Source: Naegleria gruberi (taxonomy: Eukaryota). From it: DNA of 64,000 bases. The position numbers and the translations under genes were made by a program. The notes under the pieces were generated by a model, which did not search any database, was not told where the DNA came from, and was given only the letters and a program-made list of their open reading frames with translations. The stretch's first letter is position 1; the number at the start of each line of letters is the position of its first letter. The DNA lies in NCBI GenBank assembly GCA_000004985.1, contig GG738850.1; one strand, 5' to 3'. Shown in pieces: positions 13,644 to 40,308 of this stretch.

Positions 13644-14135
13644 ATGTCTGAAACCAAGCAAGTCGAATTAACATCCAAGGATAAAGTTTCCTTCAAGGTT
13701 GATAGAGATGTCATCTTGATGTCCGGTCTCGTTAAGGATATGTTAGAAGAAGGTGATGAAGATGAAACACCAATCATCCCAATTCCAAACGTTGATTCCA
13801 AGCCATTGCAAAAGGTTATTGAATATTGTCAATATCACCACAAGGAACCAGCCCAAGAAATTGAAAAGCCATTGAAGGGTAAGATTGAAGATGTTATCTG
13901 TGATTGGGACAAGAAGTTCTTGGAAATTGATCAATCTCTCTTGATTGAACTTATCATGGCTGCCAACTATTTGAATATTAAGGATCTTTTGGATTTGACC
14001 TGTGCTAAGGTTGCCTCCATGATCAAGGGCAAGTCACCAGAACAAATTAGAGAAATGTTCGGTATTGAAAATGATTTCACCCCAGAAGAGGAAGCCAAAA
14101 TTAGAGAAGAAAACAAGTGGTGCGAAGAAGCATAA
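13644..14135 (+). CDS. SKP1: Skp1 (SCF ubiquitin ligase subunit), intronless, 163 aa
   Basis: ATG at 13644. The N-terminal BTB/POZ-like Skp1 tetramerisation domain and the C-terminal dimerisation helix (DLLDLTCAKVASMIKGKSPEQIREMFGIENDFTPEEEAKIREENKWCEE) match the canonical Skp1 signature. Confidence 0.92.
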   Translation: MSETKQVELTSKDKVSFKVDRDVILMSGLVKDMLEEGDEDETPIIPIPNVDSKPLQKVIEYCQYHHKEPAQEIEKPLKGKIEDVICDWDKKFLEIDQSLLIELIMAANYLNIKDLLDLTCAKVASMIKGKSPEQIREMFGIENDFTPEEEAKIREENKWCEEA

Positions 14136-14154
14136 ATTGTATTATAAATTTGTT

Positions 14155-14215
14155 AATTTTAATTTTTATTTAATTTTTATTTAATGTTATTTAATTTTTA
14201 TTTCAATATTATTAA
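14155..14215. repeat. AT-rich tandem repeat ((t)aatttttatttaat)n in the Skp1 3' flank
   Basis: About four tandem copies of ttaatttttatttaat lie immediately after the Skp1 stop codon. Confidence 0.5.
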
Positions 14216-14343
14216 ATTATTGTTGGAATTAGTGAAATTGGGTAGCATGCTGAGATAATTTAAAATTGCTAGGATTAATAAAGTATGAATATTGACAGTT
14301 GACAATGATTTTAAAATCTCAAATATTATTTGTTTTTATTGGA

Positions 14344-16170
14344 TTAGTCACTCTCTTCCTCTTCTTCTCTTTTCCTCTTGTTCTTTTCATTCCTATTTTC
14401 ACTGACCAGTTTGTGAAATTCTTGCTTGATAGAGACTGTGTTTGCATTTGGTTTCAACAATGAGCGAGTCAATGAAAGCATGTTTGCAATCTTTAACAAA
14501 TTGATATCTTTGGTAGAGAGAGAACCCAATTTGTTTCTCAAATATTTAACCAAACTGTTTCTGTCAGCAGAGCCATAATTTTGCTCAGTGATCATGGTGG
14601 GCTCAATTTTGATACTTCTTCTATTTGAACCAGATGGAATGAATGAGTGATCAACACTAGTATCTATGGCACCTTTGGCTTTAAATAATTTAACTTCGGT
14701 TTTCAACAAGCCAAAATCAATTCTGAAAAACTTTTCAGACTCTAACCGAACAATTTTCAAAATTTTCCAACACTCTACAATGACACGATAGCCTCCTGTA
14801 TATCTGGGAATCATGTTACCAATTCTTGCAATGTGATCAGAAATGTAACAACAATCTGGAAAATCAATAATTGTTGGTGATTTGGTATCGTAAAAACCTT
14901 CTTCTTGTCCAAGTAACCAATTCAAGCATTCACCATATTCAATATTGCCTCTAATCTTTTCTAAAAGCTCAGGACATTCCTTGTACATTGGATTTGGTGT
15001 GTTAGCTTTAACTATTTTCCAAGTTGAATCCATAATTCTTCTTTTAGTAATGATTGGATTCTTATTCTTATAAGGAGCTAATGGAGTAAGCTTCTCCCAA
15101 AATTCATTTGCAGTAATTTCATCACCATTGACTTTTCTTGGCAATGGATATTGGGACTGGGCAATCTTTTCCAATTTCATATCAGCATTTCTTGTTGGAT
15201 TGCTTGCCAATTCACTACTATTACCATTGATTGCCTTAGGTGTAGTTGGTAGAGCATTTTGAACACCCAATTGAATGGCAGCAATCAAGTCTTGGATTGT
15301 CATGTTATTCAACATGAGAGGCTGTGCTGGTGTAATAGATGATTCTGTAGAGGTGAGGAGAGTTCCTTCATCTTGTTTGACAATTCCTTCATCTTGTTTA
15401 ACATCCTCCTTGTAACAAGTGAGCTCCTTGTACAAATCGAGTGATTTTTGTCTATCAAAATGTACAAACAATCTATAGATCATTACTAATCTATCATTGG
15501 TGGATATTTCCATGTCAAATCCTAATTGCTCTGACTTGGCATCAATCCACTTGTTCAAAAAGGATGTAAATACCTTTCCAAATAGAATATTTTCATCAGT
15601 AGAGCTATATTGAACAATTGAATCGTAAATATAGGTAGGCAAATGAAACTTGATTCTTCTAAAGAATGAGTCACTTGTTACATTATCCAATGGAGGTTCT
15701 TCTCTCAATACATTGATAAATTTCTCCTCTGTGTAGTCATTATCTTCAGCAGTTTTAATACCCATGAGTATACTGTTAGGGTCAATTAAATGTAGGATTT
15801 TCTTGTCAACATAACGACGATAGACATTGTTACCTGGTGTTAACTTCCATCCATACCAACGAATGATTAGTTCAAACTCGTCAACCTTTAAACTTTGGTG
15901 TTGGATCATGATTTGCACAGCAGCCCATGTAGCTCCAGATCTTCTCATACTATAAGGAACAATATGTTGCTGAATTCCAACAAATAATCTAGAATTGGTA
16001 ATTTCTTTAGCAAATTGACTCAAATTGTGAGGTACAAAACCATTTCCAATAGAGGAGAATAAATGCATTTCCAAACATTCTTCCTTAATAGAAAAGTCAC
16101 AATTTTTCAAACATGACTCCAAGTTACCACTTTTGAAAATTCCTCTCAAAGCCAAATATTCTAAAAGCAT
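14344..16170 (-). CDS. 608-aa ORF whose N-terminal ~125 aa resemble a tyrosine-recombinase (phage-integrase/Cre/Crypton-type) catalytic domain; C-terminal ~480 aa have no recognised domain
   Basis: ATG at 16170 with an in-frame TGA immediately upstream. The ordered motifs are LALRG (box I Arg), IGNGFVPH (beta-hairpin region), HIVPYSMRRSGATWAAVQ (box II), IIRWYGW (conserved Trp) and NNVYRRY (candidate catalytic Tyr about 9 residues after the Trp). This parallels Cre RHSARVGAARD...AGGWTNVNIVMNYIR. There is an internal DVKQDEGIVKQDEG duplication. The gene lies beside tRNA-His. Confidence 0.5.
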   Translation of the reverse strand: MLLEYLALRGIFKSGNLESCLKNCDFSIKEECLEMHLFSSIGNGFVPHNLSQFAKEITNSRLFVGIQQHIVPYSMRRSGATWAAVQIMIQHQSLKVDEFELIIRWYGWKLTPGNNVYRRYVDKKILHLIDPNSILMGIKTAEDNDYTEEKFINVLREEPPLDNVTSDSFFRRIKFHLPTYIYDSIVQYSSTDENILFGKVFTSFLNKWIDAKSEQLGFDMEISTNDRLVMIYRLFVHFDRQKSLDLYKELTCYKEDVKQDEGIVKQDEGTLLTSTESSITPAQPLMLNNMTIQDLIAAIQLGVQNALPTTPKAINGNSSELASNPTRNADMKLEKIAQSQYPLPRKVNGDEITANEFWEKLTPLAPYKNKNPIITKRRIMDSTWKIVKANTPNPMYKECPELLEKIRGNIEYGECLNWLLGQEEGFYDTKSPTIIDFPDCCYISDHIARIGNMIPRYTGGYRVIVECWKILKIVRLESEKFFRIDFGLLKTEVKLFKAKGAIDTSVDHSFIPSGSNRRSIKIEPTMITEQNYGSADRNSLVKYLRNKLGSLSTKDINLLKIANMLSLTRSLLKPNANTVSIKQEFHKLVSENRNEKNKRKREEEEESD

Positions 16171-16612
16171 AAAAGATAAAGCAATTGTTATTCAAACCCC
16201 AATCCACAAAGTTTAGATTCACTCTCTTTCAATCATTGATAAAATGAATTTGTTAGCTTTTATTTTGAATTTTATTACCAGTTCTCTATTCCACACAAAA
16301 AGATACAAGACTACAGCACCACAGGTTCCCAAGTTGTCTCCAACCTCAGTACTGATGTGGTTCGACGATGCTTAACTTCTCAAATCGGACGGGATGAGGT
16401 GCATTCATCGTGATATGGCCGTAGCCAATCATATTATCAAAATAATGTTAGTGAACTATTAATATTTCTAAATTGCTTAACTTATCTATCACAATGAGTG
16501 AAATTCTCAAAAAAAATGTTATGTCTAAATCATAATTAAACAGATCTCGTTTTTCATTATTAACTTTAACTTGTACTGATTATAAAATAAACTAATTTAC
16601 ATCAATTAGAGA

Positions 16613-16683
16613 AGGGAGATAGTTCAGTGGTAGAACATGGGATTGTGGTTCCTAAGATCAGGGTTCGATTCCCTGTCTTCCTA
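16613..16683 (+). tRNA. tRNA-His (anticodon GTG)
   Basis: Cloverleaf elements are acceptor AGGGAGA/TCTTCCT (one G-U pair), D arm GTTC-AGTGGTA-GAAC, anticodon arm TGGGA-TTGTGGT-TCCTA and T arm CAGGG-TTCGATT-CCCTG. There is no encoded G-1, as expected for a eukaryote. A T6 run follows at 16686-16692. Confidence 0.85.
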
Positions 16684-16685
16684 CA

Positions 16686-16692
16686 CCTTTTT
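16686..16692 (+). terminator. Pol III terminator (T6) after tRNA-His
   Basis: A TTTTTT run lies immediately 3' of the tRNA. Confidence 0.6.
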
Positions 16693-16772
16693 TAACAACA
16701 GAAAGAAAAGATTTAACTTAAGGATTATTGTTGACGGACAGATATTTACATTTGAGATTTATCGGGTACAAT

Positions 16773-18701
16773 TCAATTTTCAGTAATTACTTCACGATAG
16801 GATTGAGCCACTTCTAATGTATTATCTTTTGGAACAAATTTGATTCTTGGATGGTGGGGAATTATGTATTTCGAAAATAATTCACTATTATTCGAATCAT
16901 ACTCAAAATACTCTAAACTTGGTGGCAAATCTAACTTTGGATAAATATCTTGAACAAAATCAGAACTATCACTAAAATTAAAATGCCACACTAGCTTTTT
17001 GAGCTGTCTGAATTTCTTGATTGATTTTACAATATCCATATCATTTTGTGCATATGTATTCGTTCTTATAATTAATTCTTTGAGATTGGGTGATCTTTTT
17101 GCTAGATTTCTAATCACCCTCCCACTAATAGCACCATGACTCGTATTTATAGATTCTACATCAGTCAGTAATGCCTTCTCAACATCTCTATTTTCAATAT
17201 AGAAATGTTCAGAGCCATAGGTTAGAGGTTGCATCATGTAATAAACTGTTCTTTTTCCAGGTTTTTTCAAATAATAATTGAAAAAGGAAGAGTTCAAAGT
17301 GTGGCCAAGTATTTGCATACCATTAACTCTTTCATGGCTTGGCATGAATAATTTTTCTTTCAATGATGATGTGTGATTGTGTTTCTCTAACTGTCTGTCA
17401 GCATTATTAATTAAATTTCTAAATGAAATTTCAAGAATGTCATCATTGACCACACTTTTCATGGCAATTTCTCTCCAATATTTACAAGTTCTTGAAATGA
17501 GCATTCTATTATAGACAGGTAGGAATGAAAATATTAATTCTGTAGAGTTATCATCCAATAGGCGGTAACTAAATGCTGAAATTATTTTAGTATTAGGATT
17601 GAGAGCTTTGGCTTTTTGAATATATACATCACGTTCCTTTTTCATGTCTTTTCTTCCATAGACATAGGCAATCATTTTAGCACATTCATCACTATTAATA
17701 ATACTCATTGATTGTAAAAAATCATCCAATGCCAAATCAACTTCATGTGAATAATAGTATGAAAGTCCTCTATTATAAATATAATGGCCCAAATTTGGAT
17801 GATCCTTTCCAATTTCAATAGCCTTATTGTAACATTCAATAGAATCTCTGTAATAGGTTGAAAAATAATATGAAATTCCAGCTCTGAAATATAGCTCTTC
17901 AAGAGATATTATTGAGGAAGGAATTTTAACCTTCTCTGTCTGTTCTTCCTGGGGAGCAGTGACTTCCTGTACTTGTTTCCCCAACTTGCTCTTTATCAAG
18001 TTTCCAGCATGTTTGAAATAGGATTTGGTTTGTTCATGAAATTCATTCAAATTCTCCATCACCTTCTCAGCAGTATGTTTCATAACATTTTGAATTTCAA
18101 AAACCTTCTTCTCCACCTCATTGGATTTGCTATCGTTGGCTTCTTTCAACTCTATTGCCTTTTTGAATGCATGAGCAGATTCCAAATAATCTCCAGTCAC
18201 ATAGAGAAGAAACCCTTCCAAATATTTGACAATATAGGTCTCTTTCAGCGTGTAATCCAAATAGATAGCAAATTTGAGATCGTTCATTGCCTTTTCATAC
18301 TTATTAGAGGCACATCTCACCAAAGTTCTTTGCAAGTATAAAATTGCATCTTCAGATGATAATACAACTTTTGGATCTGATGAGTTTTCCATTGGTGCTG
18401 AATTTTCTATTGCTGAATTTTCATTCTTTTCATCGGCTGTAATTAATTTCGCATCGTCACCATCAACAATTTTCATCTTGTTATTCAACATCTTCTCGGC
18501 CTTATCTTGCTTTCTATATAAAATCTTCTCCTTCAATTCTCTTCTTTTAATCTTCCAGTTGGAATCAATCTTTTGATTGTTTTCTCTAATTTTACTATCC
18601 ATCGAGGAGAAGGTACTATGAATGAAATTGTATGCAGAGCCACCCAAGATGAGCGGGAAAAGAAGGATCAGAACAGGACCAGAAGGTACACTTCCACACA
18701 T
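16773..18701 (-). CDS. F-box protein with N-terminal hydrophobic segment, coiled-coil/TPR-like repeats and C-terminal LRR-like region
   Basis: ATG at 18701. The F-box motif is LIFSFLPVYNRMLISRTCKYWREIA. Upstream are TPR-like helices (YFRAGISYYFSTYYRDSIECYNKAIEIGKD...). The N-terminus has VLILLFPLILGG. Confidence 0.6.
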   Translation of the reverse strand: MCGSVPSGPVLILLFPLILGGSAYNFIHSTFSSMDSKIRENNQKIDSNWKIKRRELKEKILYRKQDKAEKMLNNKMKIVDGDDAKLITADEKNENSAIENSAPMENSSDPKVVLSSEDAILYLQRTLVRCASNKYEKAMNDLKFAIYLDYTLKETYIVKYLEGFLLYVTGDYLESAHAFKKAIELKEANDSKSNEVEKKVFEIQNVMKHTAEKVMENLNEFHEQTKSYFKHAGNLIKSKLGKQVQEVTAPQEEQTEKVKIPSSIISLEELYFRAGISYYFSTYYRDSIECYNKAIEIGKDHPNLGHYIYNRGLSYYYSHEVDLALDDFLQSMSIINSDECAKMIAYVYGRKDMKKERDVYIQKAKALNPNTKIISAFSYRLLDDNSTELIFSFLPVYNRMLISRTCKYWREIAMKSVVNDDILEISFRNLINNADRQLEKHNHTSSLKEKLFMPSHERVNGMQILGHTLNSSFFNYYLKKPGKRTVYYMMQPLTYGSEHFYIENRDVEKALLTDVESINTSHGAISGRVIRNLAKRSPNLKELIIRTNTYAQNDMDIVKSIKKFRQLKKLVWHFNFSDSSDFVQDIYPKLDLPPSLEYFEYDSNNSELFSKYIIPHHPRIKFVPKDNTLEVAQSYREVITEN

Positions 18702-36489: not shown

Positions 36490-36562
36490 GCCGACATAGC
36501 TCAGTTGGGAGAGCGTAAGACTGAAGATCTTAAGGTCCCTGGTTCGATCCCTGGTGTCGGCA
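36490..36562 (+). tRNA. tRNA-Phe (anticodon GAA)
   Basis: The sequence GCCGACATAGCTCAGTTGGGAGAGCGTAAGACTGAAGATCTTAAGGTCCCTGGTTCGATCCCTGGTGTCGGCA differs from vertebrate tRNA-Phe at only a few positions, with a compensatory change in the acceptor stem. The anticodon loop is CTGAAGA. There is one U51:U63 mismatch in the T stem. A T-run follows. Confidence 0.8.
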
Positions 36563-40227: not shown

Positions 40228-40308
40228 CGCGGTCTACAGGACTCGAACCTGTGCGGGTCTCCCCAATTGATTTCTAGTCAATCACCTTAACCACTCGGTC
40301 AAGACCGC
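40228..40308 (-). tRNA. tRNA-Ser (anticodon AGA) with long variable arm
   Basis: The minus-strand sequence GCGGTCTTGACCGAGTGGTTAAGGTGATTGACTAGAAATCAATTGGGGAGACCCGCACAGGTTCGAGTCCTGTAGACCGCG closely matches vertebrate tRNA-Ser-AGA. The acceptor stem pairs perfectly. The anticodon loop is CTAGAAA. The long variable arm is type II. Confidence 0.85.

What the first reader, a model, noticed from the sequence alone, without database searches (positions are those of the whole stretch)
14140..16700. Tyrosine-recombinase-like catalytic module at the N-terminus of a 608-aa ORF next to tRNA-His: candidate Crypton-type element or domesticated recombinase
The first ~125 residues of the 14344..16170 (-) product carry the hallmarks of the phage-integrase/Cre catalytic domain in the right order and spacing. 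They are LALRG (box I Arg), an IG.G...VP hairpin region with Asn at the usual Lys position, HIVPYSMRRSGATWAA (box II with RR), YGW (conserved Trp) and a Tyr about 9 residues later (NNVYRRY). This parallels Cre 289-324. The remaining ~480 aa match nothing I recognise and include a short DVKQDEG duplication. In eukaryotes, tyrosine recombinases are essentially confined to Crypton DNA transposons, DIRS/Ngaro retroelements and a few domesticated genes. The ORF is stop-bounded immediately 5' of its ATG, so the usual N-terminal DNA-binding domain is absent or lies on a separate exon. It sits about 440 bp from a tRNA-His gene, and tRNA genes are common landing sites for mobile elements in compact genomes.
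Basis: partly seen in the sequence, partly recalled or inferred. Interest (0 to 1): 0.7.

Follow-up and report, generated by a model that had tools for sequence, protein, structure and literature searches.

The report
Truncated Naegleria tyrosine-recombinase-like gene
The 608-aa ORF is the 3' two-thirds of a gene found only in the amoeba genus Naegleria that encodes a very divergent Cre/Xer-type tyrosine recombinase with a long extra tail. This copy starts halfway through the catalytic domain, so it cannot be a recombinase on its own, and it looks like a resident low-copy gene, not a jumping Crypton element.

Summary
The ORF (14344..16170, minus strand) is real, and the window is Naegleria gruberi DNA. 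Its first ~120 residues are homologous to the C-terminal half of a tyrosine-recombinase (YR) catalytic domain. ORF Y73/R76/W108/Y120 align with Cre H289/R292/W315/Y324.

The true Arg-I and Lys lie about 25-60 residues upstream of the ORF's Met in the full-length protein, and that part is not encoded anywhere in the window. It sits on a small separate N. gruberi scaffold (XP_002668243.1), whose last 120 residues are identical to ORF residues 1-120.

- **Homology:** full-length relatives align with Cre/Xer profiles over both domains (hhalign P 3e-7). Pfam and AlphaFold gave nothing usable.
- **Distribution:** the family appears only in Naegleria, at one or two copies among annotated proteins.
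- **Position:** it occupies the same syntenic site in N. fowleri and N. lovaniensis.
- **Selection:** dN/dS is about 0.1-0.25.
- **N. fowleri:** it keeps only the non-recombinase tail.

The best reading is a resident, possibly domesticated, YR-derived gene with a truncated copy or allele here. The tRNA-His proximity is incidental, and a 5S rRNA gene lies between. Interest is moderate to low.

The parts
14344..16170 (-). 608-aa ORF. It is the 3' part, matching residues 502-1109 of the ~1109-aa composite, of a Naegleria-specific YR-like gene.
15808..16170 (-). ORF aa 1-121: remnant of the C-terminal half of the YR catalytic domain. Residues 1-120 are identical to XP_002668243.1 residues 502-621.
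15943..15954 (-). Box II 'Y73-S-M-R76', with Tyr in the place of the usual His. It aligns with Cre H289..R292 and XerD H244..R247.
15847..15849 (-). W108, which aligns with Cre W315 and XerD H270.
15811..15813 (-). Y120, the conserved candidate nucleophile in the R[RK]Y motif. It aligns with Cre Y324. Y117 is not conserved.
16171..16307 (-). 137-bp spacer with no homology to the full-length gene and an in-frame stop at 16192-16194. Homology to XP_002668243.1 ends at the ATG, and there is no AG acceptor here.
15358..15399 (-). 21-bp tandem duplication (DVKQDEG / IVKQDEG) in a poorly conserved linker.
14659..15012 (-). [not shown]
14392..14598 (-). ORF aa 525-593: helical motif 'NY..A....L....R.KLGS.S.K.IN.L'. 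It occurs once here and twice in N. lovaniensis and N. fowleri. A basic/acidic tail follows.
   Evidence: no Pfam hit
16308..16426 (-). 5S rRNA gene directly upstream of the ORF. It is context and not part of the gene.
16613..16684 (+). tRNA-His (GTG). It is context.

Best explanation
The ORF is the 3' two-thirds of a gene restricted to the genus Naegleria.

**The full-length protein** is about 1109 aa in N. gruberi and 1315 aa in N. lovaniensis. It has four parts:
- an acidic N-terminal extension;
- a Cre/XerD-like core-binding domain;
- a YR catalytic domain with the residues R, K, Y (in place of His-II), R, W and Y;
- a lineage-specific C-terminal region of about 470-620 aa, which probably contains a winged-helix-like module.

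**This window's copy** begins in the middle of the catalytic domain. Arg-I, the hairpin Lys and the whole core-binding domain are missing. A 5S rRNA gene and tRNA-His lie where the 5' half should be. On its own it therefore cannot assemble a YR active site (inference from the established R-K-H-R-H/W-Y mechanism).

**The missing 5' half** is joined seamlessly to an identical copy of the first 120 codons on a small unplaced scaffold. The window therefore holds either a very recent truncated paralogue, a truncated allele, or one side of an assembly break.

**The family as a whole** behaves as a resident, selected, low-copy gene. It is either a domesticated or host-retained recombinase, or a very old element fixed in place. 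It does not behave as an active Crypton. Where the YR part is kept it is the most constrained part. In N. fowleri only the C-terminal tail survives as an ORF, which suggests the tail has a function of its own.

**Shown:** homology, truncation, distribution, synteny, selection. **Inferred:** catalytic competence of the full-length protein, DNA binding by the tail, and the cause of the truncation.
For: **The window copy is truncated**
- XP_002668243.1 (P0002) residues 502-621 equal ORF residues 1-120, and none of its first 501 residues is encoded in the window.
- A 44%-identical gene on metagenome contig L001 is continuous across that junction.

**YR homology**
- hhalign of the family against 11 canonical YRs: score 56.5, Prob 93%, P 3e-7, 272 columns, XerD 6-292.
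- Against 6 Cre-like YRs: score 53.2, P 1.4e-6, Cre 16-326, with all six catalytic positions aligned.
- Controls: reversed sequences score 16-17. Block shuffles reach at most 46.5.
- UniRef names both N. lovaniensis paralogues 'Tyr recombinase domain-containing protein'.

**Resident, low-copy, selected**
- Only 5 hits in 1.84 billion proteins, all Naegleria-type. None turned up in the JGI metagenome or IMG/VR scans.
- The N. fowleri and N. lovaniensis copies lie between the same PUA and RPS23/HROB genes.
- dN/dS: 0.24 for N. lovaniensis copy A vs B (YR part 0.08), 0.20 for N. fowleri vs N. lovaniensis, 0.16 for the window ORF vs L001.
- The YR remnant is the best-conserved segment: 56% vs 41% identity (window ORF vs L001) and 42% vs 28% (window ORF vs N. 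lovaniensis).
- N. fowleri keeps only the tail.

Against: - No curated profile available here (Pfam, NCBIfam, PHROGs) and no PDB sequence search reaches significance.
- Several features look element-like:
  - two N. gruberi copies identical over 120 aa;
  - a 95.6%-identical tandem pair in N. lovaniensis, one of them 5'-truncated;
  - at least 3 frameshifts in L001;
  - disruption in N. fowleri, with a 1.7-kb strain polymorphism next to it;
  - a window locus that is not syntenic with the other species.
- Copy number was judged from annotated proteins and six loci, not from whole-genome DNA searches.
Confidence: 0.6

Rival explanations
1. This is a dead, 5'-truncated copy of a low-copy Crypton-like DNA transposon, meaning a YR-only element without reverse transcriptase. 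The copies in the other species would be decaying insertions of the same element family.
For: - The gene is YR-only, with no RT in any flank.
- Truncations and frameshifts recur.
- Near-identical duplicates exist within N. gruberi and N. lovaniensis.
- The catalytic residues are retained.
- The region between PUA and RPS23 varies between species and between strains.
- ATRAATTTGTTA occurs only twice in 64 kb, once on each side of the ORF.
Against: - The gene sits at the same syntenic site in two species whose copies have dS of about 1.4.
- dN/dS is 0.08-0.26.
- There is no other copy in the 64-kb window.
- Only one or two annotated copies exist per genome.
- No DUF3504 or GCR1_C signal was found.
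- The flanking 12-mer is AT-rich, was chosen post hoc and is absent from the other loci.
Confidence: 0.25
2. The truncation is not biological. The small scaffold carrying XP_002668243.1 and this window would be the two halves of one intact gene, split by a mis-join, or they would represent two haplotypes of one locus.
For: - The overlap is 120/120 identical residues, and the scaffold's protein is flagged 'partial' and ends at that scaffold's edge.
- The exact window ORF has no gene model in the protein collection.
Against: - The window sequence is continuous with no Ns.
- The junction sits 137 bp from the 5S gene rather than inside a repeat, and tightly packed normal genes follow it.
- There is no splice acceptor at the junction.
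Confidence: 0.3
3. The truncated ORF is itself a functional gene. As in N. fowleri, only the C-terminal tail matters, and it would act as a winged-helix-like DNA-binding or chromatin-binding protein. The recombinase remnant would be a passenger.
For: - N. fowleri retains a 554-aa tail-only ORF with dN/dS 0.20 against N. lovaniensis.
- L001 keeps an open 503-aa 3' ORF while its 5' part is frameshifted.
- This parallels the Crypton-derived yeast genes, which share only the C-terminal DNA-binding domain (PMC3212892).
Against: - There are no expression data.
- The window copy is identical to the full-length copy in the overlap, so its open frame says nothing about selection on the short form.
- The dN/dS values integrate over time before the truncations.
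Confidence: 0.2
4. The match is a chance motif resemblance and the protein is not a tyrosine recombinase relative at all.
For: - No Pfam, PDB, PHROG or NCBIfam hit reaches significance.
- Single-sequence hhalign against individual YRs does not beat decoys.
Against: - The profile-profile P is 3e-7, with a collinear two-domain alignment and all six catalytic positions in register.
- Controls fall far below the real score.
- UniRef independently names the N. lovaniensis proteins as Tyr recombinase domain proteins.
Confidence: 0.05

Closest known systems
Cre / XerC-XerD / lambda Int type tyrosine recombinases
   Same: The alignment is collinear over both the core-binding and the catalytic domains (Cre 16-326, XerD 6-292). 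Arg-I, hairpin Lys, Arg-II, Trp (as in Cre) and the Tyr nucleophile are all in register.
   Different: - His-II is replaced by a conserved Tyr ('PYS[MF]RR').
- The protein has an N-terminal extension of about 260-310 aa and a C-terminal extension of about 470-620 aa.
- It is a eukaryotic nuclear gene.
- It is too divergent for Pfam PF00589.
- The window copy lacks the first half of the domain.
Crypton DNA transposons and Crypton-derived genes (Gcr1, Ndc10/Cbf2, Cdg1; DUF3504 genes such as KCTD1 and ZMYM2-4), per PMC3212892
   Same: It is a eukaryotic YR without reverse transcriptase. It has a long non-catalytic C-terminal region, and a derivative (N. fowleri) keeps only that region, much as GCR1_C is the only domain shared by the yeast derivatives. 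It is low-copy, syntenic and under selection, like domesticated genes.
   Different: - No DUF3504 or GCR1_C profile match was found.
- The full-length forms retain the catalytic residues, whereas DUF3504 genes have lost them.
- No multi-copy family or termini were shown.
- The host is a heterolobosean, a lineage absent from the Crypton host list in that paper's text.
Telomere resolvases ResT and TelA
   Same: A Tyr sits three residues before Arg-II (ResT Y293-x-x-R296, verified). PMC11317167 says this second active-site tyrosine is shared only by ResT and TelA.
   Different: There is no profile similarity (hhalign scores 14-17, P 0.3-0.6), although canonical YR profiles also fail to detect resolvases. 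The family has Trp rather than His before the nucleophile. No resolvase-type domains were detected.
DIRS1-like YR retroelements reported as uncertain in N. gruberi (PMC3266345)
   Same: It is a YR-coding sequence in the same species.
   Different: No RT or RNase H is present in or next to any copy.

Membership tests
Tyrosine recombinase superfamily | Significant match to a curated catalytic-domain profile (Pfam PF00589 Phage_integrase or equivalent) | tested here: not met
   There is no Pfam hit for the ORF, P0002 or the N. lovaniensis copy B protein (translated from locus L002). The best weak hit is phrog_5830 integrase, E 0.047. UniRef nevertheless names the N. lovaniensis proteins Tyr recombinase domain-containing.
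Tyrosine recombinase superfamily | Profile-profile homology to bona fide YRs across the catalytic domain | tested here: met
   hhalign P 3e-7 against 11 YRs and 1.4e-6 against 6 Cre-like YRs. Reversed and block-shuffled controls never reach the real score. This holds for the full-length family. The window part alone gives P 0.0066.
Tyrosine recombinase superfamily | Catalytic residues R-K-H-R-H/W-Y in order | tested here: not met
   The window ORF has only Y73 (at the His-II place), R76, W108 and Y120. Arg-I (R440) and Lys (K478) are on another scaffold. The full-length family has R-K-Y-R-W-Y, invariant in the three aligned sequences from N. gruberi, N. lovaniensis and contig L001.
Tyrosine recombinase superfamily | Integrase catalytic fold | tested here: inconclusive
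   [not shown]
Crypton DNA transposon | YR-encoding element without reverse transcriptase | tested here: met
   No RT or RNase H domain appears in the proteins or in neighbouring genes.
Crypton DNA transposon | Multiple dispersed copies with common termini or short terminal direct repeats | tested here: inconclusive
   The window holds one copy and genomes have 1-2 annotated copies. The only flanking repeat is an AT-rich 12-mer not seen at other loci. Whole Naegleria genomes could not be searched.
Crypton DNA transposon | Sequence affinity to Crypton YR, DUF3504 or GCR1_C | tested here: not met
   The Pfam scans, which include those models, returned none.
Domesticated transposase-type gene | Orthologous position, low copy number and purifying selection | tested here: met
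   N. fowleri and N. lovaniensis share the site between PUA and RPS23/HROB. dN/dS is 0.08-0.26. Synteny is not shown for the N. gruberi window locus.
DIRS / Ngaro / VIPER YR retroelements | Adjacent RT/RNase H ORF and terminal repeats | tested here: not met
   None is present in the window, L001, L002 or L003-L005.
Telomere resolvase (protelomerase) | Profile similarity to ResT, TelN or TelK | tested here: not met
   hhalign scores are 14-17, P 0.3-0.6. The test has low power, because canonical YR profiles also score only about 20 against the resolvases.

The most novel reading that the evidence does not exclude
The full-length Naegleria protein is an active eukaryotic recombinase with an unusual second active-site tyrosine (Y-x-x-R, as in ResT and TelA). 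There are two versions of this reading. In the first, it is the transposase of a previously unrecognised Crypton-like DNA element lineage in Discoba; the 2.1-kb window segment, bracketed by ATRAATTTGTTA, would then be a non-autonomous derivative. In the second, it is a host enzyme for a Naegleria-specific DNA transaction, such as resolving or amplifying the circular extrachromosomal rDNA plasmid. That plasmid's existence is background knowledge and was not checked here. The loss of the recombinase domain at the N. fowleri locus argues against an essential host role.
Probability: 0.12. Interest if true: 0.7.

Novelty: new member of a known kind. Interest (0 to 1): 0.35.

Why it matters
If the reading is right, Naegleria carries a private, very divergent tyrosine-recombinase gene that standard domain profiles miss. 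The papers retrieved here report YR sequences in Discoba only as retroelements: VIPER and TATE in kinetoplastids, and uncertain DIRS1-like fragments in N. gruberi.

The family shows in one genus several stages of the recombinase part being lost while the tail is kept:
- a full-length gene;
- a tandem partial duplicate;
- a frameshifted copy;
- a half-domain copy (this window);
- a tail-only gene (N. fowleri).

This resembles how Crypton-derived regulators are thought to have arisen. For this window the practical message is more modest. The ORF is an incomplete gene piece, not an intact recombinase and not evidence of tRNA-targeted insertion.

Tried and rejected
**Sequence and profile searches**
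- Pfam, NCBIfam, PHROGs and PDB sequence searches with the ORF, P0002, P0003, the N. lovaniensis copy B protein (translated from locus L002), the alignments and C-terminal pieces gave nothing significant.
- tblastn of the YR region against 50,697 phage genomes gave nothing.
- Word-indexed protein searches found only Naegleria proteins.

**Structure**
- Two AlphaFold jobs gave mean pLDDT 45 and 39.

**hhalign**
- Single-sequence comparison against individual YRs does not separate them from decoys. Only multi-sequence profiles work.

**Wider scans**
- Metagenome and viral scans by pattern found no relatives. The single hit, L016, is a chance match inside a GC-rich bacterial gene.

**Ideas rejected**
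- An upstream exon or intron is rejected. There is no AG acceptor within 30 nt of the ATG, a 5S gene occupies the spacer, and the window has no tblastn match to the missing 501 residues.
- Kinship with telomere resolvases is not supported.
- A SAP/HeH-like reading of the C-terminal 'LGS.S.K.IN.L' motif has no profile support.
- P0002's own contig could not be retrieved.
Full report
**What is at the coordinates**

The ORF 14344..16170 (minus strand) is 608 aa, starts at ATG 16170, and has an in-frame stop 7 codons upstream at 16192-16194. tRNA-His (GTG) lies at 16613-16684. A SKP1 homologue lies downstream (13644-14135, +) and an F-box/TPR gene upstream (16773-18701, -). The window has 33% G+C and no Ns. 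It is Naegleria gruberi DNA: the only exact database relative is XP_002668243.1 / EFC35499.1, 'predicted protein, partial [Naegleria gruberi]' (P0002, 621 aa).

**The ORF is a truncated piece of a longer gene**

- P0002's last 120 residues (502-621) are identical to ORF residues 1-120. Homology stops exactly at the ORF's ATG.
- None of P0002's first 501 residues is encoded anywhere in the 64-kb window.
- The 30 nt before the ATG contain no AG acceptor, so this is not an intron boundary.
- A 44%-identical gene on an ENA metagenome contig (L001) runs continuously across the equivalent point.
- N. lovaniensis has full-length homologues (P0003, 1007 aa; P0006, 1305 aa).
- The complete N. gruberi protein would therefore be about 1109 aa (alignment A1). 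The window holds only its last 608.

**Is the N-terminus of the ORF recombinase-like?**

Curated profiles say nothing:
- Pfam, NCBIfam, PHROGs and PDB sequence searches were all negative or insignificant.
- tblastn against phage genomes was empty.

Structure prediction failed for lack of alignment depth:
- Mean pLDDT was 45 and 39, with the YR region below 50.
- The fold searches are uninformative for this region. The Foldseek top hit was Tre/Cre at only E 0.22. Searches gave no YR hit.

Profile-profile comparison did work. I aligned three family sequences: the N. gruberi composite, N. lovaniensis copy B, and frameshift-corrected L001. I compared them with alignments of genuine recombinases taken from annotated records. 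These were XerC, XerD, FimB, FimE, lambda Int, Cre, Dre and four Cre-like phage proteins.

| Target profile | Score | Prob | P | Span |
|---|---|---|---|---|
| 6 YRs | 34.7 | 28% | 6e-4 | XerD 6-284 |
| 11 YRs | 56.5 | 93% | 3e-7 | 272 columns, XerD 6-292 |
| 6 Cre-like YRs | 53.2 | 90% | 1.4e-6 | Cre 16-326 |

- Reversed-sequence controls score 16-17.
- Across the 400 block-shuffled runs against the 11-YR and Cre-like profiles, the highest score was 46.5, so none reached the real scores of 56.5 and 53.2.
- Single YR sequences do not separate from decoys, which explains why ordinary searches miss the family.
- UniRef independently names both N. lovaniensis proteins 'Tyr recombinase domain-containing protein'.

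**Which residues are which**

In the alignments:

| Cre | N. gruberi full-length protein (P0002 numbering) | Motif | Window ORF |
|---|---|---|---|
| R173 | R440 | LTGSRPFS | not encoded |
| K201 | K478 | EHDKT | not encoded |
| H289 | Y574 | PYSMRR | Y73 |
| R292 | R577 | PYSMRR | R76 |
| W315 | W609 | YGW | W108 |
| Y324 | Y621 | RRY | Y120 |

- 'LALRG' is not box I. It lies in the helix after the hairpin.
- 'IGNGFVP' is not the Lys hairpin. It is the 'lF.s..g' stretch before box II.
- The conserved Tyr is Y120. Y117 is Ala in N. lovaniensis.
- R, HDK, Y..RR, W and R.Y are invariant in the three aligned sequences, from N. gruberi, N. lovaniensis and contig L001.
- Tyr in place of His-II is unusual. 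ResT has Y293-x-x-R296, which I verified in the cp26 sequence. PMC11317167 states that a second active-site Tyr is shared only by ResT and TelA.
- Profile comparison with ResT, TelN and TelK shows no similarity (scores 14-17), so this remains a resemblance only.
- By the established YR mechanism, a protein without Arg-I and the hairpin Lys cannot form the active site. The window ORF alone is therefore not a recombinase (inference).

**Distribution and evolution**

- A full HMMER scan of 1.84 billion representative proteins with the composite profile found five proteins. They are the N. gruberi partial protein, N. lovaniensis, N. fowleri, and two ORFs of L001.
- Scans of JGI metagenomes and IMG/VR found no relatives.
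- N. lovaniensis has two tandem copies, 95.6% identical over 3.1 kb. The upstream copy is 5'-truncated but keeps the whole YR part.
- N. fowleri has, between the same neighbours (PUA/eIF2D-like on one side, RPS23 and HROB on the other), only a 554-aa ORF that corresponds to the C-terminal tail.
  - Where the YR part would be there is a P-loop/STAND-like gene.
  - One strain keeps a small inverted remnant of the N-terminal domain.
  - A 1.7-kb indel distinguishes two strains.
- L001's 5' half carries at least three frameshifts, while its 503-aa 3' ORF is open.

dN/dS values:

| Comparison | dN/dS | Note |
|---|---|---|
| N. lovaniensis copy A vs copy B, whole | 0.24 | |
| N. lovaniensis A vs B, YR part | 0.08 | dS 0.04 |
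| N. lovaniensis A vs B, tail | 0.26 | dS 0.15 |
| N. fowleri vs N. lovaniensis | 0.20 | dS 1.4 |
| Window ORF vs L001 | 0.16 | |

- The YR remnant is the best-conserved part between species (56% vs 41% and 42% vs 28% identity).
- The window locus shares no neighbours with the N. lovaniensis locus apart from an unrelated 5S gene about 6.5 kb from that copy.
- No tRNA is adjacent to the other copies.

**The tail**

**Interpretation**

The most economical reading is a Naegleria-specific gene derived from a Cre/Xer-type recombinase. It is low-copy, sits at a fixed site in at least two species, and is under purifying selection. Its recombinase part has been truncated or lost repeatedly while the tail persists. 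That fits 'resident or domesticated recombinase' better than 'active Crypton'. The window copy is a half-domain truncation, an allele, or an assembly break.

A low-copy decaying element remains possible. The evidence for that is the recent duplicates, the truncations, the variable neighbourhood, and a 12-mer (ATRAATTTGTTA) that occurs only twice in 64 kb, once on each side of the ORF. That 12-mer is AT-rich, was selected post hoc, and is absent from the other loci.

The tRNA-His proximity has no support as a targeting signal.

**Novelty**

The family is uncharacterised, and I found no paper on it. The only related reports concern uncertain DIRS1-like fragments in N. gruberi (PMC3266345). The kind of thing, a YR-derived eukaryotic gene, is known (PMC3212892), and orthologues already carry an automatic 'Tyr recombinase domain' label. 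I rate it a new member of a known kind, of moderate to low interest.

Noticed in passing
window 16308-16426 (-): A complete 5S rRNA gene (Rfam 103 bits) lies 137 bp upstream of the ORF and 186 bp from tRNA-His, so two small-RNA genes are clustered. A 95%-identical 5S gene lies about 6.5 kb from the N. lovaniensis copy (L002 3341-3459), next to a tRNA-Glu.
   Followed up: partly
window 14144-14155 and 16244-16255 (+): ATRAATTTGTTA occurs only twice in the 64-kb window, as direct repeats bracketing the ORF 2.1 kb apart (expected 0.17 by shuffling). It is AT-rich, was chosen post hoc, and is absent from the homologous loci of other species, so it may be chance.
   Followed up: partly
window 13644-14135 (+) and 16773-18701 (-): A SKP1 homologue (Pfam Skp1 and Skp1_POZ) and an F-box/TPR protein gene flank the ORF. 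These are two SCF-ligase components within 5 kb, probably by coincidence.
   Followed up: no
L002 9834-13364 and 14275-18037 (N. lovaniensis PYSW02000005.1): There is a tandem pair of the YR-like gene at 95.6% nucleotide identity. The upstream copy lacks the first ~308 codons and has a 310-bp internal deletion relative to the downstream copy. dS is four times lower in the YR part than in the tail, which suggests gene conversion.
   Followed up: partly
L003 8242-8253 vs L004 3569-5278 (N. fowleri): A 1.7-kb indel between two N. fowleri assemblies lies immediately upstream of the tail-only gene. It removes the 5' part of a 653-aa P-loop/STAND-like gene and peptidase-like fragments. L004 3556-3731 holds a small inverted remnant of the recombinase N-terminal domain.
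   Followed up: partly
L001 9100-9780 (ENA ERZ27315067 k141_431645): The metagenomic homologue has at least three frameshifts in its 5' (recombinase) half, one of them in an A-run, but an intact 503-aa 3' ORF. It is either a pseudogene or an assembly error.
   Followed up: partly
window 14494-14580 (-); P0003 ~805-840 and ~890-925: The helical motif 'NY..A....L....R.KLGS.S.K.IN.L' is present once in N. gruberi and twice in N. lovaniensis and N. fowleri. It looks superficially SAP/HeH-like, but no Pfam profile supports this.
   Followed up: partly
window 36490-36562 (+), 40228-40308 (-): Two further tRNA genes (Phe-GAA, Ser-AGA) lie elsewhere in the window.
   Followed up: no
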